Source of the DNA: a virus
Length of the DNA: 64,000 bases
Virus record (IMG/VR): IMGVR_UViG_3300020162_001876
Coordinates: 46,999-110,998 of that record
Reading direction: 5' to 3' (one strand)
The notes beneath the pieces are model-generated. The model worked only from the letters and a program-made list of their open reading frames with translations. It did no database searches and was not told the DNA's origin. Below, piece by piece: positions 55,150 through 63,122 of this stretch; position 1 is the first letter of the stretch; each line of letters begins with the position of its first letter. A program made the translations under genes and the position numbers.

Positions 55150-55234
55150 GGAGGTGTGGACAGTTGGTTGTTAAGCGGTCTTGAAAATCGTCGCCCGTGC
55201 ATTCGGGTTGCAGGTTCGAATCCTGTCGCCTCCG
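55150..55234 (+). tRNA. tRNA-Ser(TGA)
   Basis: Cloverleaf with long variable arm, loop CT-TGA-AA. Confidence 0.85.
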
Positions 55235-55240
55235 CAATAT

Positions 55241-55312
55241 TGGCTCATAGTGTAACGGTTAGCACAAAACACTTTGACTGTTTTAGTCCAAGTTCGAATC
55301 TTGGTGAGCCAA
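55241..55312 (+). tRNA. tRNA-Gln(TTG)
   Basis: AAACA-CT-TTG-AC-TGTTT. Confidence 0.9.
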
Positions 55313-55321
55313 CAACAATTT

Positions 55322-55392
55322 CTAGTAGCGAAGCCCGGTTTCATGCCTCACTTGGACTGAGGAGTACGCAGGTTCGAATCCTGCCTATTAGA
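55322..55392 (+). tRNA. tRNA-Pro(TGG), atypical D arm
   Basis: CCTCA-CT-TGG-AC-TGAGG, canonical T arm. Confidence 0.75.
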
Positions 55393-55398
55393 CGAAAG

Positions 55399-55454
55399 GA
55401 GACTGTTACTAATTTATTGGACCTCATAGTGGGGGGAATCGTAGAATTAGATTT
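55399..55454 (+). repeat. inter-tRNA repeat element copy 1
   Basis: GAGACTGTTACTAATT...CGTAGAATTAGATTT. Confidence 0.8.
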
Positions 55455-55455
55455 T

Positions 55456-55528
55456 GCCTTCGAAGCTCATGTGGACGGGCACTCCGCTTTTAACGGAGGG
55501 GTAGATGGTTCGAGGCCATCCGGGGGTA
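55456..55528 (+). tRNA. tRNA-Lys(TTT)
   Basis: CTCCG-CT-TTT-AA-CGGAG. Confidence 0.85.
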
Positions 55529-55534
55529 CGAGAA

Positions 55535-55596
55535 GAGACTGTTACTAATTCATAGAAGACCACGCGAGTAAGTCCTCGAAGCGTAGAATTAGATTT
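55535..55596 (+). repeat. inter-tRNA repeat element copy 2
   Basis: Same 16-nt and 15-nt flanks as copy 1, different core. Confidence 0.8.
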
Positions 55597-55667
55597 GCCT
55601 CGTTGGCGTAATGGTAGCGTATTTGTTTTACATGCAAATGGCAGTGGTTCGATTCCACTACGAGGTA
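55597..55667 (+). tRNA. tRNA-Val(TAC)
   Basis: TTTGT-TT-TAC-AT-GCAAA. Confidence 0.88.
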
Positions 55668-55768
55668 CAAAAATGGGGATGATAGGCGATATCTAGCGGC
55701 AATTGGGTATCTGGGTTCATAGCCATACTATGAAATGTTAGTTTTGCCGAATTAATAGAGTAGTAGTT

Positions 55769-55838
55769 TCGTTAATAGTGTAGCGGAAACACGCCAGCTG
55801 TGAAAGCTGGAGGGTAGGGTTCGAGACCCGTTAATGAG
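55769..55838 (+). ncRNA. aberrant tRNA-like RNA (loop TGTGAAA, weak T stem)
   Basis: Acceptor TCGTTAA/TTAATGA, D arm GTGT-agcggaa-ACAC, arm CCAGC/GCTGG. Confidence 0.5.
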
Positions 55839-55845
55839 CAAAATT

Positions 55846-55927
55846 GGGTAGCAAAAGTCGTTCGGATACGGCAGCGAGACTGTAAATCTCGTCCTTATAG
55901 GGAGTGGTTCGAGTCCACTGTTACCCA
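55846..55927 (+). tRNA. tRNA-Tyr(GTA)
   Basis: CGAGA-CT-GTA-AA-TCTCG, variable arm. Confidence 0.85.
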
Positions 55928-55940
55928 CTGTATTAACTTG

Positions 55941-56013
55941 GGGCCTTTTGTATAGCTGGTGCGTACGCTAGTCTGAAGAACTAGAGGAACAGGTTCGATT
56001 CCTGTAGGGCCCA
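55941..56013 (+). tRNA. tRNA-Phe(GAA)
   Basis: CTAGT-CT-GAA-GA-ACTAG. Confidence 0.88.
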
Positions 56014-56092
56014 CGAAGAAGGAGAATGTGGGTTCGAATCCCACCTGGTCTAGCTAAAACTGGGTCGGTAGTGTAACGGTAACATAACTTCG
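56014..56092 (+). ncRNA. circularly permuted tRNA-like RNA (T arm, looped acceptor, D arm)
   Basis: GTGGG-TTCGAAT-CCCAC, then CTGGTCTAG-ctaaaa-CTGGGTCGG, then TA-GTGT-aacggta-ACAT, closed by CGAAG/CTTCG. Confidence 0.65.
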
Positions 56093-56097
56093 CATTA

Positions 56098-56169
56098 GGA
56101 TCCTTAGCTCAGAGGCAGAGCGGTTGTTTGTTAGGCAACGGGTCGAGATTTCGAAATTCTCAGGATCCT
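56098..56169 (+). tRNA. tRNA-Asn(GTT) copy 1, atypical T loop
   Basis: GTTGT-TT-GTT-AG-GCAAC; acceptor GGATCCT/AGGATCC. Confidence 0.75.
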
Positions 56170-56175
56170 CAAAAT

Positions 56176-56247
56176 TGGCTTGTCGTATAAAGGTTATTAC
56201 GGATGACTGTTAATCATCTTATGAAGGTTCGATTCCTTCCAGGCCAG
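56176..56247 (+). tRNA. tRNA-Asn(GTT) copy 2
   Basis: GATGA-CT-GTT-AA-TCATC. Confidence 0.9.
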
Positions 56248-56254
56248 CAAAATT

Positions 56255-56326
56255 GCTCCTATAGTAGAATGGTTAGCACACATCTCTGATAAGGATGAAA
56301 TGGAGGTTCAATTCCTTCTAGGAGTA
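56255..56326 (+). tRNA. tRNA-Ile(GAT)
   Basis: CATCT-CT-GAT-AA-GGATG. Confidence 0.88.
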
Positions 56327-56332
56327 CAAAAT

Positions 56333-56417
56333 GGAAAGTAAATCACACAGGGTGTGAGACCGCTTGCTAAGCGAATCATGCGTTAATTCGCATGGGGATC
56401 GAGACCTCTGCTTTCCT
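56333..56417 (+). tRNA. tRNA-Ser(GCT)
   Basis: Loop TT-GCT-AA, long variable arm CATGCG/CGCATG. Confidence 0.75.
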
Positions 56418-56548
56418 CAAAAAAACCTCTTCACCGTCCTCACAACGCATCTAAGGAATGTAGGAGATGAAAGTACGAACGGGGCCCTGTGGTAAGACAC
56501 TTTAAAATCAGATAGTACAATGATAGAGTAAGGGGTTCTCTATCAACT

Positions 56549-56618
56549 GCCGACTTGATCAGGTGATCGAAAATATCTCATAAGTATTTTCAGAGTGGAT
56601 CGTTACCACTAGTCGGTA
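56549..56618 (+). tRNA. tRNA-Met(CAT), elongator-like
   Basis: AATAT-CT-CAT-AA-GTATT; acceptor GCCGACT/AGTCGGT. Confidence 0.75.
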
Positions 56619-56621
56619 CAA

Positions 56622-56672
56622 AAATCAACGAGACGAAGGAGGTCACGTAGGTTCGAATCCTACCGTTGATTT
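56622..56672 (+). ncRNA. minihelix-like tRNA mimic (acceptor + T arm only)
   Basis: AAATCAACG-16 nt-GTAGG-TTCGAAT-CCTAC-CGTTGATTT. Confidence 0.55.
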
Positions 56673-56679
56673 AGTATAT

Positions 56680-56750
56680 GGTGGTTCTAGCTTATCGGTA
56701 AAGCGCTTGACTGTGAATCAGGAGAACAGGGTTCGATCCCCGGAATCACC
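56680..56750 (+). tRNA. tRNA-His(GTG)
   Basis: CTTGA-CT-GTG-AA-TCAGG; G-1 and C73 present. Confidence 0.9.
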
Positions 56751-56764
56751 CAAAATTAATTATT

Positions 56765-56965
56765 ATGGCAAGAGAATACAGTGAAAGTGAAAAAATGCTA
56801 CTTGAAGCAGTAGTTGGATTGTTTATAATACATCCTAACCCTCAATTAAAAGGTAAAGAAAAAAGAGTAATGAAAATTGCTTATGAGGTAATGGATAAAA
56901 TGTTAGAAAAAAATGCCCCTGTGGTGAAAATGGTAAACACACTATCTTTAAACGGTAGCGCTTAG
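56765..56965 (+). CDS. hypothetical protein whose 3' end runs into tRNA-Leu
   Basis: Good A-rich start; stop falls inside the tRNA variable arm. Confidence 0.45.
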   Translation: MAREYSESEKMLLEAVVGLFIIHPNPQLKGKEKRVMKIAYEVMDKMLEKNAPVVKMVNTLSLNGSA

Positions 56966-56994
56966 GCTTGCTGGTTCGACTCCAGTCAGGGGTA
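56915..56994 (+). tRNA. tRNA-Leu(TAA)
   Basis: CTATC-TT-TAA-AC-GGTAG, variable arm. Confidence 0.88.
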
Positions 56995-56999
56995 CAAAA

Positions 57000-57102
57000 T
57001 TGGAGTGGTGGAATTGGTAAACATCTTCCCTATCCGGCAGAGATAGGTACACTAGGCTGAGGATGCAATAAACTCAGTGCAGGTTCAAATCCTGTCTCCA
57101 AC
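57000..57102 (+). ncRNA. expanded tRNA-like RNA with two internal hairpins
   Basis: TTGGAG/CTCCAA acceptor, Leu-like D arm, CCTATC-cggcaga-GATAGG, CTGAG/CTCAG, T arm GCAGG-TTCAAAT-CCTGT. Confidence 0.55.
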
Positions 57103-57108
57103 TTAACT

Positions 57109-57181
57109 GGTCTTATAGCATAAATGGAAATGCACTTGAATACGAATCAAGAGATTGTAGGTTCGACTCCTACTAAGACCT
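57109..57181 (+). tRNA. tRNA-Arg(ACG)
   Basis: CTTGA-AT-ACG-AA-TCAAG. Confidence 0.85.
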
Positions 57182-57186
57182 CAACT

Positions 57187-57257
57187 GCCCTTATAGTTCA
57201 AAGGAAGAACATATCTCTTCTAAAGATAGAATCCTGGTTCGAGTCCAGGTAGGGGTT
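57187..57257 (+). tRNA. tRNA-Arg(TCT)
   Basis: TATCT-CT-TCT-AA-AGATA. Confidence 0.88.
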
Positions 57258-57331
57258 CAAAAAAATCGTCTTGGATCATTTGATATGATTTAATGGGTAA
57301 CACCTGGTAGGTTAAGCGATATCCTATAAAT

Positions 57332-57400
57332 GCGTCACAGGCTAAGGTAGCCAAATGGATTCCAACCCCATAGGACAGAGTTCGATTCTTTGGTGGCGCG
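57332..57400 (+). tRNA. tRNA-Trp(CCA)
   Basis: ATGGA-TT-CCA-AC-CCCAT; acceptor GCGTCAC/GTGGCGC. Confidence 0.8.
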
Positions 57401-57404
57401 CAAT

Positions 57405-57477
57405 TGGGGTAAAAGCACATAAGGATGTGCAGGCGGTAGACGCCGCAAGGCCTGGGTTCGAATCCCAAGTACTCCAC
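57405..57477 (+). ncRNA. tRNA-like RNA with 4-5 nt anticodon loop
   Basis: TGGGGTA/TACTCCA, D arm GCAC/GTGC, GGCG-gtaga-CGCC, T loop TTCGAAT. Confidence 0.55.
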
Positions 57478-57543
57478 AAAAGTATTAATTATGAAAAAGA
57501 AATTCGATGCTCATTAGGTTTATTAACCTAAAATTTGAGCAAA

Positions 57544-57723
57544 ATGAGAATCAAAAACTATACTAACAAAGAGTATAAAAAAGAAAAAAGAAAAGAGTAT
57601 AAGGAATGGGATACTTGGTTTGAAGATTATTGGAGTAAAAAGTCAAAAATATGGGCTTTTAAATACCGAGAATATAGAACCTGGAAGTATAACAGAAAAA
57701 CACAATATAAACCTTTAAAATAA
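57544..57723 (+). CDS. small basic/aromatic protein ending RTWKYNRKTQYK
   Basis: ATG at 57544 follows a hairpin; K/W/Y-rich. Confidence 0.55.
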   Translation: MRIKNYTNKEYKKEKRKEYKEWDTWFEDYWSKKSKIWAFKYREYRTWKYNRKTQYKPLK

Positions 57724-57729
57724 GTTATC

Positions 57730-58236
57730 ATGAGTAAACATCAGAAAACACTAGTAGTGGATTCAAGCTTTATCGCAAGAAGTATTATACCTGCAGAAAG
57801 AGCATTTGTGATTTCTTATAAAGGTAATGCAGAGGTAATAGCAGAACATCCAGAAACATTTGGATTAGTAAATCCAAATCTAGAGATTTACAAACCTTCT
57901 ATTATTAGAGTATTCACTTATGTGAAACAACACATACATAAAGTTGCTCTGACAAGAGATAACATCTACAAAAGAGATAACTATGAATGTGTATATTGTG
58001 GAAGTTCAAATCAAAGAACACTAACATTGGATCACGTGGTTCCTCAATCAAAAGGAGGAAAAGATAGCTGGGACAATTTAGTAACAGCATGCAGAACATG
58101 TAATCAGGAAAAAGCTGATTTAACATTAGAGGAATATGGAAAAGAAATTCCAGAACCAAAACGTCCACATTACCTGATGCTATTAAGACAAGTTCAGGAC
58201 ATACCAAGAGAATGGGAAACATTTTTATTCTTTTAG
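57730..58236 (+). CDS. HNH endonuclease (McrA-like)
   Basis: RDNYECVYCG, TLDHVVPQSKGG, WDNLVTACRTCNQEK. Confidence 0.92.
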   Translation: MSKHQKTLVVDSSFIARSIIPAERAFVISYKGNAEVIAEHPETFGLVNPNLEIYKPSIIRVFTYVKQHIHKVALTRDNIYKRDNYECVYCGSSNQRTLTLDHVVPQSKGGKDSWDNLVTACRTCNQEKADLTLEEYGKEIPEPKRPHYLMLLRQVQDIPREWETFLFF

Positions 58237-58245
58237 TAAAAAAAG

Positions 58246-58277
58246 TTTGGAAATTAGAAATAAAGTTCGTATATTTA
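58246..58277 (+). promoter_or_regulatory. early-type promoter TTTGG-N19-TATATTTA
   Basis: Consensus and spacing match. Confidence 0.7.
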
Positions 58278-58295
58278 AGTATAAGAAATTAAGAT

Positions 58296-58469
58296 ATGAA
58301 AGATTTTTTAAATTGGTTAGTAGGACTTCCAAAATGTAAAAAAGGAGGAAGATGTAATTCAGATTCAGAAATGGAATATACATTAGCCTCAAAAAGATTC
58401 TTTGAAAAGACAAATAGATGGTGCTGTTCTAAATGTAATAAAGAAGTAACAGACTATTTTAAAATTTAA
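58296..58469 (+). CDS. 57 aa Cys-rich protein (possible Zn ribbon), not in ORF track
   Basis: MKDFLNWLVGLPKCKKGGRC...WCCSKCNKEVTDYFKI directly behind a promoter. Confidence 0.55.
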   Translation: MKDFLNWLVGLPKCKKGGRCNSDSEMEYTLASKRFFEKTNRWCCSKCNKEVTDYFKI

Positions 58470-58543
58470 AATCACCTACTACAAAACAGCACGTGAAATT
58501 AATACTGACTTGTACTGTCTGGAAGGTCAGGCTAGGTGAATTT

Positions 58544-58613
58544 GGGCAGGATGGTCTTGGAGGCCGGCAGGATTGCAAACTCTGCAGAGTAAGTTCGATT
58601 CTTACCTTGCCCT
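58544..58613 (+). tRNA. tRNA-Cys(GCA)
   Basis: Loop TT-GCA-AA, U73 discriminator. Confidence 0.8.
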
Positions 58614-58633
58614 CAAAAAAAGATTAAAAAAGG

Positions 58634-58698
58634 TTTGGCTATCGGAAATTAATTTCGTATATTAAATCATAATAAAAAGATCATTGAAATATTGGATA
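58634..58698 (+). promoter_or_regulatory. second tRNA-block promoter plus boxA-like element
   Basis: tttgg-N19-tatattaaatcataataaaaa then GATCATTGAAATATTGGATA. Confidence 0.7.
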
Positions 58699-58707
58699 AG
58701 ATAAATT

Positions 58708-58780
58708 GCCCGAGTGGTGGAACGGCAGACACGCTTGACTTAGGATCAAGATATTGCGGGTTCGAATCCCGCCTTGGGTA
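58708..58780 (+). tRNA. tRNA-Leu(TAG) with short variable loop
   Basis: CTTGA-CT-TAG-GA-TCAAG; only ATATT between anticodon and T arms. Confidence 0.85.
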
Positions 58781-58789
58781 CAAAATTTA

Positions 58790-58970
58790 AAATCACTTGC
58801 TTGAAGATAAACAAATGATAAGAGGTAGTCTATTACAAACGTACAAAATAGATTATCATTAAACTGTACTAGCAGTTGTGTTTGTTGTAGAGATAGACCT
58901 GGAAAAACAGGATAAAGAAGAGAATCTGGAAACAGTAAATCTATTCCACTAGAATTTGGACAAGTGATTT
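58790..58970 (+). ncRNA. putative ~180 nt multi-hairpin RNA
   Basis: Perfect 10-bp closing stem AAATCACTTG/CAAGTGATTT, several internal hairpins. Confidence 0.5.
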
Positions 58971-58980
58971 AAAACTAAAA

Positions 58981-59047
58981 TTAGAGTTAGCTTATAGTAA
59001 AGCAGCAGGGGCTAACCTGCAGAACGGATACGAGAACCGGCTCTAAT
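58981..59047 (+). ncRNA. tRNA-like RNA with 6-nt loop GGCTAA and degenerate T arm
   Basis: TTAGAGT/GCTCTAA, GCTT/AAGC D stem, GCAGG/CCTGC. Confidence 0.5.
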
Positions 59048-59052
59048 TATTT

Positions 59053-59124
59053 GCTTCTGAAACATAAATGGTAATGTACTTGATTTGTACTCAAGAAAAC
59101 GGGGTTCGATTCCTCGCAGAAGCT
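59053..59124 (+). tRNA. tRNA-Thr(TGT)
   Basis: CTTGA-TT-TGT-AC-TCAAG. Confidence 0.85.
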
Positions 59125-59132
59125 CAATAATT

Positions 59133-59206
59133 GCATCATTCGCCTAGTAGGTATGGCACCACACTTCCAATGTGGAATAAGGCCGGTTCGAGACCGGCAT
59201 GATGCT
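59133..59206 (+). tRNA. tRNA-Gly(TCC)
   Basis: CCACA-CT-TCC-AA-TGTGG, U73. Confidence 0.88.
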
Positions 59207-59257
59207 CAAGGGTGTGTGGGAACCCAAGAATATGTGATGAACATATACCCACAATCT

Positions 59258-59329
59258 GCTGCGTTAGTGAAGAGGTTAACACGTATCACTTTCTATGATA
59301 AGGCACGGGTTCGAATCCCGTACGCAGTA
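59258..59329 (+). tRNA. tRNA-Glu(TTC)
   Basis: TATCA-CT-TTC-TA-TGATA. Confidence 0.85.
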
Positions 59330-59335
59330 CAATTT

Positions 59336-59407
59336 GGGGCTATAGTATAACGGCTATTACAATGGTTTTGCAAATCATAAATTGGAGTTCGATTCTCCAT
59401 AGCTCCA
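59336..59407 (+). tRNA. tRNA-Ala(TGC)
   Basis: ATGGT-TT-TGC-AA-ATCAT, G3:U70 pair. Confidence 0.9.
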
Positions 59408-59463
59408 CAATAGCTTAATCGACTTTTGACAGATTTGACAACTTGGAACAGACAAGTAATTTT

Positions 59464-59535
59464 GGTCTATTGGTCCAGGGGAATGGATGCCTGCCTGTCA
59501 CGTAGGAGACCCGGGTTCGAATCCCGGATAGACCG
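59464..59535 (+). tRNA. tRNA-Asp(GTC)
   Basis: CCTGC-CT-GTC-AC-GTAGG, G73. Confidence 0.9.
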
Positions 59536-59540
59536 CATAT

Positions 59541-59613
59541 CGCGAGGGGGAGGTAAGGTATCTCATGACTCTCATAAGGTCACTTAAATCGGTTCAATTC
59601 CGGTCCTACGCTA
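59541..59613 (+). tRNA. tRNA-Met(CAT), initiator-like, irregular acceptor
   Basis: Starts CGCG, loop CT-CAT-AA. Confidence 0.65.
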
Positions 59614-60546: not shown

Positions 60547-61458
60547 ATGAAAAATTCGTTATCAACAAAAGGGTTATCAATGTCTCAAGCACAATCAGTT
60601 TCTAACTTGTGCAACCAAAGATCAAAAGAAATCACTAATAAGTTAGTGGATATTAACAATGTTTCAAAAACATTAGTTATCAACTCAGAAACTTATACTG
60701 AGACTCAAGGTAATCCAATGCCTACAAATGTAGTAGAATTGTTAACTGAAAAAGCAAGACTGTCTGCTACACAAGCATTTTTGATGGAGAACATCAAAGC
60801 AAAAGACGAATTAATCACAAGCATCCAAAGAGATCAGTTTGAGTATGAGGTAGAAGCACCTCAAAGACCAAAAACAGAAGTAAGAGTTTTACCTTTCTTA
60901 GTTGATGAGAATTGGGGTTGGAGTCAATTATCAGCTGCTGAACACAATGAGTATTTAGAGGCTGAAGCATATGCTTCACATATTGGACAATTTATCCATA
61001 AAGGAGGTAAATTGGATAAATTGAGATCAGAATTACCTACCATTAAAACTTTAGAGTTTATGGAAATTGAGGTAGGAAAGAAAACACCTATGAAAGTAAG
61101 TGTTCACCACACCTCAGACCAGTTACTTGAAATCCATGAACAGTTAGCAGCTCTACATAGAGGGTATGAGCAAAAAGTAAATTACTTTAAAGCCAAAGTA
61201 AAAAATTCAGTAACAACTGAAAATGCTCGTATTGCTAAAGAAAGAGCTGATATCCAATCAGAGGTAAATGAAATTAACTCAAAACAAGATGTTGAGTACA
61301 AAAATGCTTACGATAAATGGGCAGCTGAGTATAAGAAAGCATCTCAAGAATTTGAGATTGATCGTCAGAATAGAATTCACGAAACTGCCAATTTAAAAAT
61401 CGAAGTAGCAGAAAGATTCCAGCCTGTGATTGATATGTTCTTAAATAAATTAAAATAA
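60547..61458 (+). CDS. 303 aa coiled-coil protein of unknown function, followed by structured RNA
   Basis: Heptad-rich; AEAYASHIGQFIHKGG core. Confidence 0.75.
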   Translation: MKNSLSTKGLSMSQAQSVSNLCNQRSKEITNKLVDINNVSKTLVINSETYTETQGNPMPTNVVELLTEKARLSATQAFLMENIKAKDELITSIQRDQFEYEVEAPQRPKTEVRVLPFLVDENWGWSQLSAAEHNEYLEAEAYASHIGQFIHKGGKLDKLRSELPTIKTLEFMEIEVGKKTPMKVSVHHTSDQLLEIHEQLAALHRGYEQKVNYFKAKVKNSVTTENARIAKERADIQSEVNEINSKQDVEYKNAYDKWAAEYKKASQEFEIDRQNRIHETANLKIEVAERFQPVIDMFLNKLK

Positions 61459-61503
61459 TTTGGTACCAAAGGGCTAAGCACAAGCCGATGCCCTAAGGTT
61501 TTA

Positions 61504-61809
61504 TGTCGGGAGTAGAAAGATTTTTATAAAACTATATATAAGATTTATTAATCATACTATGACATCAGCAAGACTTAGTGTCTCGCTTTAACAACTTTCG
61601 CTTCCACTACAACACCCAACAACTTCTGAGATAGAACTCAATCGTTAAACAAGTTACTGAAAGCTCATAGAGAAAGAGGAATCTTTACCACTAGACAGAT
61701 AATTGGTTAACAAAAAGAGACTTAGATTTTGTCTTTGCCTTTGAGGTAGAGGAAGGTTTTTGACATTGATTTGGTATTTGACATCGTCTATATACTTTTT
61801 CTCCCGACA
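61504..61809 (+). ncRNA. putative ~310 nt structured RNA
   Basis: ORF-free gap closed by TGTCGGGAG/CTCCCGACA; inner CTTCCACTAC/GTAGAGGAAG. Confidence 0.6.
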
Positions 61810-61839
61810 ACATATTTTTTAAAAATAATTACAAAAAGG

Positions 61840-61871
61840 CTTGCTTACGCAGGTCTTTTTTCGTATATTTA
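61840..61871 (+). promoter_or_regulatory. early-type promoter (CTTGC-N19-TATATTTA variant)
   Basis: Spacing conserved. Confidence 0.6.
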
Positions 61872-61888
61872 GGTATAAGAAAGAAGTT

Positions 61889-62539
61889 ATGAAAATAGTA
61901 TTAGAAAAAGGACAACAATTGTTCTTCACATCAGACACACATTACTCACACTCAAACATTTGTAGTGCTACTACAAACTGGTCTGTGAACGATGGATATG
62001 CTCGTCAATTTGATTCATTACAAGATATGAACCAAAGACTGGTGGATAACATCAACAACATGGTTGGTGAAGATGATATTCTAATTCACTTAGGAGATTG
62101 GTCATTTGGAGGATTTGATAAGATTGAAGAATTTAGAAGTCAAATCAACTGTAAAAACATCCACTTGGTACTTGGAAATCATGATCACCACATTGAAAGA
62201 AACAAAGAAGGCGTACAAAGACTATTCTCTTCAGTACAAAACTACTTGAGATTAGAAGTAAAAAGACCAATCAACAAAGCAACAACTGAAAAGTTTACTT
62301 TCATTTGTATGCACTATCCAATTGCGTCATGGCACGATATGAACCAAGGAGTAATTCACTTGCATGGCCACGTTCATTTACCTGAACATTTAAGAATAGC
62401 AGAGGGTAAAGCAATGGATGTTGGAGTAGATGGAAACAAATTGGAACCTATATCATTAGATGAAATAGTAGAGATAATGAAAGATCGTCCAATTAAAAAA
62501 TTAGCCTTACCAAAGGATCATCACGAAAAAAGAATTTAA
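61889..62539 (+). CDS. calcineurin-like metallophosphoesterase
   Basis: SDTHY, LGDW, GNHD, MHYP, HGHVH, DVGVD; start reassigned downstream of promoter. Confidence 0.9.
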   Translation: MKIVLEKGQQLFFTSDTHYSHSNICSATTNWSVNDGYARQFDSLQDMNQRLVDNINNMVGEDDILIHLGDWSFGGFDKIEEFRSQINCKNIHLVLGNHDHHIERNKEGVQRLFSSVQNYLRLEVKRPINKATTEKFTFICMHYPIASWHDMNQGVIHLHGHVHLPEHLRIAEGKAMDVGVDGNKLEPISLDEIVEIMKDRPIKKLALPKDHHEKRI

Positions 62540-62738: not shown

Positions 62739-63122
62739 ATGAAAGAGTTATTTTTATTAAGAGGATTACCAGGAGCAGGTAAATCAACATTAGCGAAATC
62801 ATTAGGTGGTTCGCATATGGAGGCTGATAAGTATTTTATGGATAAGGGTGAATATAAATTTGATCCAAGTAAAACAAGAGATGCTCATGAGTGGTGTCAA
62901 AATGCAGTAAGTGTTTGGATGGCAAACAATACAGAAAAGATTGTAGTATCAAACACATTTACTCAGGAATGGGAAATGGAGTATTACTTTGAATTAGCAA
63001 AAGAATACGGATACAGAGTTTATTCTTTAATTGTAGAAAATAGACATTCAGGAGTTAATTCTCATGGAGTACCAGAAGAAAAATTAGTACAAATGAAAAA
63101 TAGATTCGAGATATCGCTATGA
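62739..63122 (+). CDS. P-loop polynucleotide-kinase-like protein
   Basis: RGLPGAGKST, VSNTFT, HGVP. Confidence 0.85.
   Translation: MKELFLLRGLPGAGKSTLAKSLGGSHMEADKYFMDKGEYKFDPSKTRDAHEWCQNAVSVWMANNTEKIVVSNTFTQEWEMEYYFELAKEYGYRVYSLIVENRHSGVNSHGVPEEKLVQMKNRFEISL

What the first reader, a model, noticed from the sequence alone, without database searches (positions are those of the whole stretch)
60547..61815. Coiled-coil protein gene followed by a ~310 nt closed, highly paired non-coding RNA
Seen in sequence: a ~430 nt gap with no substantial ORF follows a 303 aa helical protein in an otherwise gene-dense genome. It holds a small hairpin (AGGGC/GCCCT, 61470-94). A domain follows that is closed by a perfect 9-bp long-range stem, TGTCGGGAG (61504-12) with CTCCCGACA (61801-09), extended by AGAAAG/CTTTTT. 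It also has an inner helix CTTCCACTAC/GTAGAGGAAG, a repeated AGACTTAG, a CAAC-rich 5' half and a TTG(A/T)C(A/T)TTG-periodic 3' half. No terminator separates it from the gene. Inference: a protein-RNA pair (RNP, RNA antitoxin/decoy or scaffold) placed between the tRNA array and the RNA-repair genes. I cannot assign it to a known family.
Basis: partly seen in the sequence, partly recalled or inferred. Interest (0 to 1): 0.72.

Follow-up and report, generated by a model that had tools for sequence, protein, structure and literature searches.

The report
Phage folded RNA with partner protein
An uncultured large phage encodes an unknown 303-aa protein followed at once by a roughly 350-base, intricately folded RNA with two rows of evenly spaced six-base units. 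The two travel together in every one of more than 230 phage sequences examined and match no described family, so they are probably an undescribed RNA-protein particle.

Summary
The gap after the 303-aa gene holds a real + strand structured RNA (about 61462-61812).

- **Structure:** on 99 distinct homologues, 46 of 48 proposed base pairs show compensatory changes. 87.8% of cells are paired, against 71% in shuffles and 40-53% in slid controls. G-U pairs fit only the + strand.
- **Repeats:** the RNA has a 5' hairpin with a conserved loop, a 14-bp closing helix, three inner helices and two arrays of five NNN-UUG hexamers.
- **Linkage:** it runs both ways without exception. Protein-first searches found the RNA in 76/76 viral and 68/68 metagenome loci that had room. 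An RNA-first search found the protein in 91/91. No third gene is conserved.
- **No known family:** no Rfam family matches. The protein has no Pfam, PHROG or PDB relative. It is predicted to form a symmetric homodimer.
- **Context:** tRNA genes lie within 1.5 kb in about half of the loci.

My best reading is a new phage ribonucleoprotein in which the protein docks on the hexamer arrays. Binding and function are not shown. Known analogues are ROOL/GOLLD by context and TRAP and VIPR by periodic repeats, but their membership tests fail. This scan has met the same family before on other genomes (e1-5834751, e1-5709757, e1-5668671). I found no publication describing it.

The parts
60547..61458 (+). 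Gene for the 303-aa partner protein. It is an orphan family. The predicted fold is two helix/beta-hairpin/helix modules plus long helices, forming a predicted symmetric homodimer. pI is about 6.
   Evidence: ORF. No Pfam, PHROG or PADLOC family. AF2 pLDDT 86.5. No fold relative apart from an uncharacterised phage homologue. Dimer ipSAE 0.52 against control 0.00. 807 clusters at 50% identity in metagenomes, all about 300 aa.
61462..61812 (+). The structured non-coding RNA, whole conserved span. It runs from the invariant GGU to the invariant AC that follows the closing helix.
   Evidence: nhmmer full-length matches in all loci with room. Covariation. Strand: 401 G-U cells against 88 A-C cells. 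No conserved ORF. No Rfam match.
61465..61499 (+). P1 hairpin. The stem is 10 bp, with two A-A mismatches in this lineage. The conserved 15-nt loop UAAGCACAAGCCGAU (61475-61489) contains a 2-bp mini-helix, 61478-79 with 61484-85.
   Evidence: helices 1 and 2: all 12 pairs have changes on both sides. Loop conservation.
61504..61519 (+). P2 closing helix, 5' strand (9 bp + 5 bp). It pairs with 61796-61809.
   Evidence: helix 3: 13 of 14 pairs have changes on both sides., I1. The helix is a continuous 15-16 bp in one clade.
61796..61809 (+). P2 closing helix, 3' strand. It is followed by the invariant AC (61811-12) and then A/U-rich sequence.
61567..61587 (+). Variable hairpin that holds this lineage's extra AGACTTAG copy. 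In relatives it is replaced by other hairpins, often capped by UUCG or GNRA-type loops.
61601..61610 (+). P3 long-range helix, 5' strand. It pairs with 61746-61755 and is preceded by the invariant CG (61599-61600).
   Evidence: helix 4: all 10 pairs have changes on both sides, 89.8% paired.
61627..61640 (+). P4 hairpin, UGAG-AUAGAA-CUCA. It is almost invariant in sequence. In the most distant clade a different, pseudoknot-like element takes its place.
   Evidence: and 58 (helix 5).
61644..61711 (+). P5 domain. Helices are 61644-48 with 61707-11 and 61650-52 with 61703-05. There is a conserved internal loop (GUUAC / GAUAAU) and a distal hairpin of variable length (61657-61698).
   Evidence: helix 6: 96.9% paired, 7 of 8 pairs with changes on both sides..
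61720..61743 (+). Hexamer array A: NNN-U(U/A)G units with conserved G at 61725, 31, 37 and 43, preceded by the invariant GAGAC (G at 61719). It runs directly into the P3 3' strand (61746-61755).
   Evidence: Column counts. Periodicity test. No indels among the 99 sequences.
61757..61786 (+). Hexamer array B: five NNN-UUG-type units with conserved G at 61762, 68, 74, 80 and 86 (the last is G or A). It is followed by the invariant CUAUAU (61788-61793).
61817..61881 (+). Not part of the RNA. This is a terminator hairpin (61833-61860) plus a promoter-like cassette. It recurs elsewhere in this and related phage genomes and in Flavobacterium phage vB_FspM_immuto.

Best explanation
The gap encodes a genuine + strand structured RNA of about 350 nt. 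It is made as the 3' part of the transcript that also encodes the 303-aa protein. The two form a two-component module that is specific to large uncultured phages, probably of Bacteroidota-type hosts.

**Fold (shown by covariation):**
- A 5' hairpin with a conserved loop.
- A 14-bp helix that brings the two ends together.
- A core of three further helices.

**Single-stranded part:** it carries two fixed arrays of five NNN-UUG hexamers, one on each side of one helix strand.

**Inferred mechanism:**
- The protein is predicted to be a symmetric homodimer.
- It docks on the two hexamer arrays, reading the conserved UUG triplets. TRAP reads spaced triplets in a comparable way.
- This would give a stable ribonucleoprotein whose paired ends protect it after release from the polycistronic, often tRNA-containing, transcript.

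What the particle does is unknown. Its frequent place at or inside tRNA arrays suggests a role in phage RNA or translation take-over.

**Shown:** the structure, the strand, the repeat arrays and the obligate linkage.
**Inferred:** co-transcription, processing, binding and function.
For: **Structure**
- fold_alignment: 27 of 35 predicted pairs have compensatory changes.
- Named structure on 99 distinct sequences: 87.8% of cells paired against 71.4% in shuffles and 40-53% in slid controls. 46 of 48 pairs have changes on both sides. Covariation score 0.542 against 0.246. 0 of 500 shuffles reach any measure.

**Strand:** 401 G-U cells against 88 A-C cells.

**Not coding:** the homologous stretch is stop-free in only 10 of 99 sequences, and lengths are spread over all three residues mod 3.

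**Linkage**
- RNA present in 76/76 viral loci found through the protein.
- Protein directly upstream on the same strand in 91/91 loci found through an RNA pattern, with 6 more lacking room.
- RNA present in 68/68 metagenome loci with room.
- RNA also present in the MAG contigs.
- The gap between them is usually 6-40 nt, too short for a promoter of its own, with no conserved upstream motif.
- Only the 303-aa gene is conserved beside the RNA: 94/99, with the next gene family at 21/99.

**Conservation:** the RNA core is more conserved than the protein. One example has 85.6% nt identity where the protein has 65% aa identity.

**Hexamer arrays**
- Conserved G every 6 nt in two runs, with U at -1 and -2.
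- 13 G-G pairs at distance 6 against 4.0 +/- 1.6 expected, 0 of 20000 shuffles.
- No indels in the arrays.

**Homodimer**
- Complex prediction score 0.52, best of 3 controls 0.00.
- That mark was reached by 20 of 30 proteins solved as pairs of one chain and by 1 of 23 solved as single chains. These counts hold only roughly, because my own alignment was used.
- The runs agree in at least 95% of contacts and partner pLDDT is at least 88.
- The model supports pairing. It does not show it.
Against: - No transcript, end-mapping or binding data exist.
- The protein is slightly acidic (pI 5.6-6.1) and has no recognisable RNA-binding domain.
- Many of its invariant residues lie in the predicted dimer interface rather than on an obvious RNA-binding face.
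- Synteny alone cannot separate a particle from a cis-acting 3' UTR or from mere co-expression.
- The hexamer arrays could instead bind a host factor or take part in RNA tertiary structure.
Confidence: 0.6

Rival explanations
1. An RNA-only 'ornate' phage RNA in the manner of ROOL and GOLLD. The RNA would act, and perhaps self-assemble, without the protein. The protein gene would be linked only because the two share a transcript or a time of expression.
For: - ROOL and GOLLD are phage and prophage RNAs that often lie near tRNA islands. They have no known protein partner and no known function (PMC12286853).
- This RNA is at or near tRNA genes in 47 of 87 loci.
- It has a rich, conserved core.
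- The protein is acidic and has no RNA-binding domain.
Against: - Linkage is absolute in more than 230 loci while every other neighbour is shuffled. That is hard to explain without a functional tie.
- The RNA is much smaller than ROOL or GOLLD.
- cmscan gives no hit to either family, even at E up to 10.
Confidence: 0.15
2. A cis-acting 3' UTR element of the protein's mRNA. It would act as a stabiliser against 3' exonucleases, an autoregulatory operator bound by the protein, or both, and would not be a free RNA.
For: - The element begins 6-40 nt after the stop codon and has no promoter of its own.
- In some loci the next gene starts about 30 nt after it with no terminator between them.
Against: - About 350 nt with five covarying helices and about 100 near-invariant positions is far more elaborate than known stabilisers or operators.
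- It is more conserved than the protein it would serve.
- In about 10% of loci one to three unrelated small ORFs lie between the gene and the RNA, and the RNA is unchanged.
Confidence: 0.12
3. A programmable guide system like VIPR. The conserved triplets would be held by the protein, and the variable 3-nt spacers would together spell a non-contiguous guide against a nucleic-acid target.
For: - VIPR is phage-encoded. It pairs one protein with an RNA of conserved triplets alternating with variable bases, followed by a structured tail (bioRxiv 10.64898/2026.04.26.720920).
- This RNA likewise alternates conserved UUG triplets with less conserved spacers.
Against: - The spacers are not hypervariable. 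Among close pairs they differ at 0.049 per site, against 0.068 for the rest of the RNA.
- The number of units is fixed at 5+5 with no indels.
- The period is 6 and the triplet is UUG, not YNNGG.
- The RNA is about 350 nt and single-copy, not arrays of about 100-nt RNAs.
- The protein model shows no RRM/RAMP-like match.
Confidence: 0.05
4. A type III toxin-antitoxin pair (RNA antitoxin, protein toxin), or another decoy against host defence.
For: The module has two components, a protein and an RNA with repeats, and it is carried by a phage.
Against: - There are no tandem repeats of 30-40 nt.
- The RNA is downstream of the gene with no terminator between them, the opposite of ToxIN-type loci.
- No PADLOC family passes a meaningful threshold.
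- The protein fold is helical and unlike the known toxins of this type. That last point rests on my own knowledge and was not tested by direct comparison.
Confidence: 0.04
5. A DNA-level element, such as a replication origin with iterons, a packaging site or a promoter cluster, rather than an RNA.
For: The 3' half is rich in TTTG words. These resemble the -33 element of Bacteroidota promoters (my own knowledge) and are repeated like iterons.
Against: - Compensatory changes maintain helices up to 300 nt apart.
- G-U pairs are tolerated on one strand only.
- The 6-nt period does not fit a DNA helical repeat.
- The sigma-70-type promoter scan found no more sites than expected by chance.
Confidence: 0.03

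Closest known systems
ROOL and GOLLD RNAs (large ornate RNAs of phages and prophages; PMC12286853)
   Same: - Both are phage-encoded and highly structured.
- Both were found by covariation.
- Both often lie beside tRNA islands.
- Function is unknown for both.
   Different: - No Rfam match to either.
- This RNA is about 350 nt, against about 580 and over 800 nt.
- It carries two hexamer arrays.
- It has an obligate protein-gene partner, which ROOL and GOLLD lack.
TRAP (MtrB) and the Bacillus trp leader RNA
   Same: A fixed number of conserved triplets (U/G-A/U-G type) is separated by short non-conserved spacers in single-stranded RNA. This is the signature of an oligomeric protein that reads one triplet per site. 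The description of TRAP rests on my own knowledge.
   Different: - TRAP is a ring of 11 small beta-sandwich subunits that reads 11 triplets. It is a host regulator of an operon.
- Here there are 5+5 units embedded in a large folded RNA.
- The candidate reader is an unrelated 303-aa helical protein predicted to dimerise.
- Pfam gives no TRAP match.
VIPR systems (Vipr RAMP protein + vrRNA; bioRxiv 10.64898/2026.04.26.720920)
   Same: A phage-encoded minimal module: one protein plus an RNA that alternates conserved triplets with other bases and has a structured constant part.
   Different: - Vipr is a RAMP, and vrRNAs are about 100 nt with 9-16 YNNGG units.
- The NN positions of vrRNAs are hypervariable and programmable.
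- Here the period is 6 and the triplet is UUG.
- The unit number is fixed, and the spacers evolve no faster than the rest of the RNA.
- The protein shows no RAMP-like match.
Stable RNAs C and D (species 1 and 2) of the phage T4 tRNA gene cluster
   Same: Non-tRNA stable RNAs of unknown function, encoded within or at the end of a phage tRNA cluster and released by processing. This rests on my own knowledge.
   Different: - The T4 RNAs are much shorter, about 120-140 nt.
- They have no linked protein gene and no hexamer arrays.

Membership tests
Any Rfam 15 family (including GOLLD, ROOL, 6S, RNase P, tmRNA, group I intron, HEARO, OLE, raiA) | A match to the family's covariance model at or near its gathering score. 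| tested here: not met
   At gathering thresholds only tRNAs appear in the whole window. With E up to 10 on 61300-62000, only chance-level hits below 20 bits to unrelated snoRNA and sRNA models appear. ARAGORN finds no tmRNA.
ROOL / GOLLD | A phage or prophage location, often beside tRNA islands. | tested here: met
   All loci are viral or metagenome contigs. A same-strand tRNA lies within 1.5 kb in 47 of 87 loci.
ROOL / GOLLD | No dedicated protein partner, and a size of about 580 nt or over 800 nt. | tested here: not met
   The upstream protein gene is obligate. The conserved span is about 300-375 nt.
VIPR | A Vipr protein with the RAMP (RRM, G-loop, thumb) fold. | tested here: inconclusive
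   The AF2 model (pLDDT 86.5) has helix/beta-hairpin/helix modules. No Cas5/6/7 or RRM chain appears among the Foldseek or VIA-align matches. Absence from such lists is not proof.
VIPR | A vrRNA made of 9-16 YNNGG units with hypervariable NN. | tested here: not met
   The units are NNN-UUG hexamers, fixed at 5+5. Spacer divergence is 0.049 per site against 0.068 for other positions in close pairs.
TRAP-trp leader | A TRAP (MtrB) protein family member. | tested here: not met
   No Pfam hit above noise for any of 38 family members.
TRAP-trp leader | Conserved triplets separated by 2-3 nt spacers in unpaired RNA. | tested here: met
   Two runs of U(U/A)G triplets with 3-nt spacers, conserved in 99 sequences. 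This is a likeness of design, not of descent.
Type III toxin-antitoxin (ToxIN-like) | Tandem direct repeats of about 36 nt upstream of the toxin gene, separated from it by a terminator. | tested here: not met
   TRF finds no tandem array. The RNA is downstream of the gene with no terminator between them.
Group I intron | Interrupts a gene, has a conserved P3-P7 core, and matches the Rfam model. | tested here: not met
   It lies between genes whose downstream member varies. There is no Rfam hit. The candidate AGACU/AGUCU pairing shows no compensatory change (inspection).
T4 stable RNAs C/D | Sequence or structure likeness to the T4 rnaC and rnaD products. | not testable with these tools
   No reference sequence was at hand. 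No phage record in the collection holds the protein, and only the terminator cassette matched at the DNA level.

The most novel reading that the evidence does not exclude
The pair is a new class of phage ribonucleoprotein machine. A dimeric orphan protein reads two five-unit UUG-hexamer arrays on a ribozyme-sized folded RNA. The particle acts on RNA during infection, for example on tRNAs or the translation apparatus, as a catalytic or scaffolding complex with no counterpart among known RNPs.
Probability: 0.3. Interest if true: 0.92.

Novelty: categorically new. Interest (0 to 1): 0.8.

Why it matters
Large, strongly covarying RNAs of unknown function are rare. In the past they have turned out to be ribozymes, riboswitches, RNP scaffolds or RNA cages.

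This one is widespread:
- The protein family has 807 clusters at 50% identity.
- Loci come from lakes, sediments, sludge and marine samples.

It comes with a defined protein partner and a simple, testable recognition feature, the two hexamer arrays. That makes it more tractable than ROOL or GOLLD, whose partners are unknown.

It may also say something about why big phages place special RNAs beside their tRNA arrays. That question has been open since the T4 stable RNAs.

Tried and rejected
**Readings tested and rejected**
- *Coding:* no ORF is conserved on either strand.
- *Known RNA families:* none match.
- *Tandem-repeat antitoxin:* none found.
- *Pseudoknot between the A/C-rich joiner (61611-61626) and array A:* it fits some lineages (CAAAAC with GUUUUG, CACA with UGUG) but not this window, so I dropped it.
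- *Pairing of GAGACU (61717-22) with AGUCUA (61786-91):* variants do not compensate, so I rejected it.
- *A short end-to-end helix between the 5' GGU and the 3' AC:* both sides are invariant and the rare variants do not compensate. It remains unsupported.
- *GGUR co-varying with the base at 61794:* this reflects phylogeny only.

**Searches that found no relative of the protein**
- Pfam, PHROG, PADLOC, PDB sequences, Foldseek (PDB, BFVD), VIA-align wide and the ESM Atlas gave nothing beyond uncharacterised homologues and helical-bundle noise.
- No GenBank phage record carries the protein.

**Steps that failed or were blocked**
- The search for related loci with single distant representatives or a too-diverse alignment found nothing usable.
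I therefore could not examine the most distant protein relatives (E 1e-30 to 1e-3) for the RNA.
- I did not build a covariance model. The alignment exceeds 400 columns and the model length exceeds the calibration limit.
Full report
**Setting.** The window is part of a 111-kb IMG/VR viral contig, estimated 68% complete. The region carries a 24-tRNA array at 55150-59612. After it come two small ORFs, the 303-aa ORF at 60547-61458, and a 430-nt stretch with no ORF over 40 aa. Next are a calcineurin-like phosphoesterase and an AAA_33/polynucleotide-kinase-like gene. At the DNA level, the only match to a cultured phage is a 65-nt terminator-plus-promoter cassette (61817-61881). It is shared with Flavobacterium phage vB_FspM_immuto.

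**Observation.** On its own the sequence is not convincing. The minimum-free-energy z-score is -2.2 on either strand, and the 9-mer pattern occurs by chance at about this rate. The verdict therefore rests on comparison with relatives.

**Relatives.**
- A protein-first scan of viral contigs gave 80 loci with 51-93% aa identity. BLAST and an iterated nhmmer profile found the non-coding element downstream in all 76 loci that reach far enough.
- An RNA-first pattern scan gave 97 loci. The protein gene lies directly upstream on the same strand in 91, and the other 6 end too early.
- A metagenome scan added 80 loci. The RNA follows in all 68 with room.
- Five MAG contigs also carry the module. They are labelled with various phyla, are probably mis-binned phage DNA, and include one contig of 363 kb.
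- The usual gap between stop codon and RNA is 6-40 nt. In roughly a tenth of loci, one to three unrelated small ORFs are inserted.
- Clustering all same-strand neighbours within 4.5 kb shows that only the 303-aa gene is conserved with the RNA: 94 of 99 unique loci, with the next family at 21 of 99.
- The RNA core is more conserved than the protein. One example has 85.6% nt identity where the protein has 65% aa identity.

**Structure.**
- RNAalifold on 60 sequences predicted 35 pairs, 27 with compensatory changes.
- An all-against-all covariation scan found the same helices and no further strong ones.
- I then named a 48-pair structure and had it counted on 99 distinct sequences:
  - 87.8% of cells paired, against 71.4% in shuffles and 40-53% when partners are slid.
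  - 46 pairs with changes on both sides.
  - Covariation score 0.542 against 0.246.
  - 0 of 500 shuffles reach any measure.
- G-U cells outnumber A-C cells 401 to 88, so the + strand is the RNA.
- No ORF is conserved on either strand.

The helices are as follows.

| Helix | Window coordinates | Notes |
|---|---|---|
| P1 | 61465-61499 | Hairpin with a conserved 15-nt loop |
| P2 | 61504-19 with 61796-809 | Closing helix |
| P3 | 61601-10 with 61746-55 | Long-range |
| P4 | 61627-40 | Hairpin, nearly invariant |
| P5 | 61644-52 with 61703-11 | Conserved internal loop and variable tip |

Variable hairpins capped by stable tetraloops, and insertions of variable length, are typical of structural RNAs. 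The conserved span starts at an invariant GGU (61462) and ends with an invariant AC (61811-12).

**Hexamer arrays.** Column counts on the 99 sequences show G conserved at 61719, 25, 31, 37 and 43, and again at 61762, 68, 74, 80 and 86. U is near-invariant at the two preceding positions, and the three spacer positions are less conserved. In the window, G-G pairs at distance 6 number 13 against 4.0 +/- 1.6 in shuffles, 0 of 20000. The two arrays flank the 3' strand of P3 and never vary in unit number. The spacers evolve slightly more slowly than the rest of the RNA: 0.049 against 0.068 differences per site among close pairs.

**The protein.**
- No Pfam, PHROG, PADLOC or PDB-sequence relative.
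- The AlphaFold2 model is confident (pLDDT 86.5, pTM 0.77). It shows two helix/beta-hairpin/helix modules and long C-terminal helices.
- Foldseek finds only an uncharacterised phage homologue.
- VIA-align gives only generic helical matches with Z below 8.
- A profile search of 1.84 billion representatives finds 807 clusters at E up to 0.001. All are about 300 aa, with no fused forms.
- No GenBank phage has the protein.
- pI is 5.6-6.1.
- A two-copy fold scores 0.52 against 0.00 for the best of 3 controls. That mark was reached by 20 of 30 proteins solved as pairs of one chain and by 1 of 23 solved as single chains. Those counts hold only roughly, because my own alignment was used. The runs agree in at least 95% of contacts and partner pLDDT is at least 88. 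This supports a symmetric homodimer. It does not show one.

**Context.** Same-strand tRNA genes lie within 1.5 kb in 47 of 87 unique loci with enough flank: upstream in 36, downstream in 10, both in 1 (examples). The downstream phosphoesterase and kinase genes of this window are frequent neighbours but not conserved ones.

**Interpretation.** The structured RNA and the obligate two-gene module are, in my view, settled. The tight spacing and the lack of any conserved upstream motif point to co-transcription. The closing helix, and the frequent lack of a terminator after the RNA, point to release by processing. Both points are inferences.

The fixed arrays of conserved triplets with 3-nt spacers are the kind of site that an oligomeric protein reads one triplet at a time, as TRAP does. 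Two arrays and a predicted twofold dimer fit together. I therefore favour an RNP in which the partner protein docks on the arrays (confidence 0.6). The main caveats are the protein's acidity and the lack of any RNA-binding domain.

The rivals are:
- an RNA-only ornate RNA like ROOL or GOLLD;
- a cis-acting 3' UTR;
- a VIPR-like guide, disfavoured by slow-evolving spacers and a fixed unit number;
- a type III toxin-antitoxin pair, disfavoured by architecture;
- a DNA element, excluded by strand-specific covariation.

**Comparison with known systems.**
- ROOL and GOLLD share the phage and tRNA-island setting and the unknown function (PMC12286853). They do not share sequence, size or the protein partner.
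- VIPR shares the design of a phage protein plus a periodic-repeat RNA. It differs in protein fold, period, motif, variability and RNA size.
- TRAP shares only the logic of spaced triplets.
- None of the membership tests is passed.

**Novelty.** Four literature searches found no description of this RNA or protein. Earlier notes of this same scan describe the same family on other genomes and reach similar readings. I reached the structure, linkage and hexamer results independently before reading them. I then tested the VIPR lead they named.

**Limits.**
- No expression data could be obtained.
- No covariance model was built.

Noticed in passing
window 61817-61881: A 65-nt cassette of a terminator hairpin plus a promoter-like TATATTTAGG stretch. 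It recurs in this genome, in many related phage contigs at other positions, and three times in Flavobacterium phage vB_FspM_immuto. It looks like a portable inter-operon punctuation element.
   Followed up: partly
window 57730-58236: An HNH endonuclease gene (168 aa) sits inside the tRNA array, between tRNA-Arg(tct) and tRNA-Cys. A homologue lies at the same relative place in 19 of 99 related loci.
   Followed up: partly
L056:2843-2920 and L060:2674-2751: ARAGORN calls a tRNA with anticodon UUA, which would read the stop codon UAA, just upstream of the protein gene in two related phages. This hints at stop-codon suppression or recoding in that lineage.
   Followed up: no
L074, L075, L077, L078, L080, L081, L082 (alignment A3 columns about 270-305): In the most distant RNA clade the near-invariant P4 hairpin is replaced by a U-run/GUGG ... 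A-run/CCAC arrangement. It looks like an H-type pseudoknot.
   Followed up: no
L181, L184 (genome contigs): MAG contigs labelled Omnitrophota and Paceibacterota (one of 363 kb) carry the phage protein-RNA module. They are probably phage contigs binned into bacterial MAGs.
   Followed up: no
window 61889-62539 and 62739-63122: A calcineurin-like phosphoesterase (PHROG 547) and an AAA_33/polynucleotide-kinase-like ATPase lie downstream, with weak likeness to RNA-ligase-associated modules. They recur in 17 and 14 of 99 related loci respectively.
   Followed up: partly
loci with ORFs inserted between gene and RNA (for example L015, L032, L038, L005): The roughly 10 nt before the RNA (AAAAUAAUUU, including the stop codon of whatever ORF precedes) stay the same even when the upstream ORF is a different gene. 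The insertions therefore seem to land at a fixed point just upstream of that leader.
   Followed up: no
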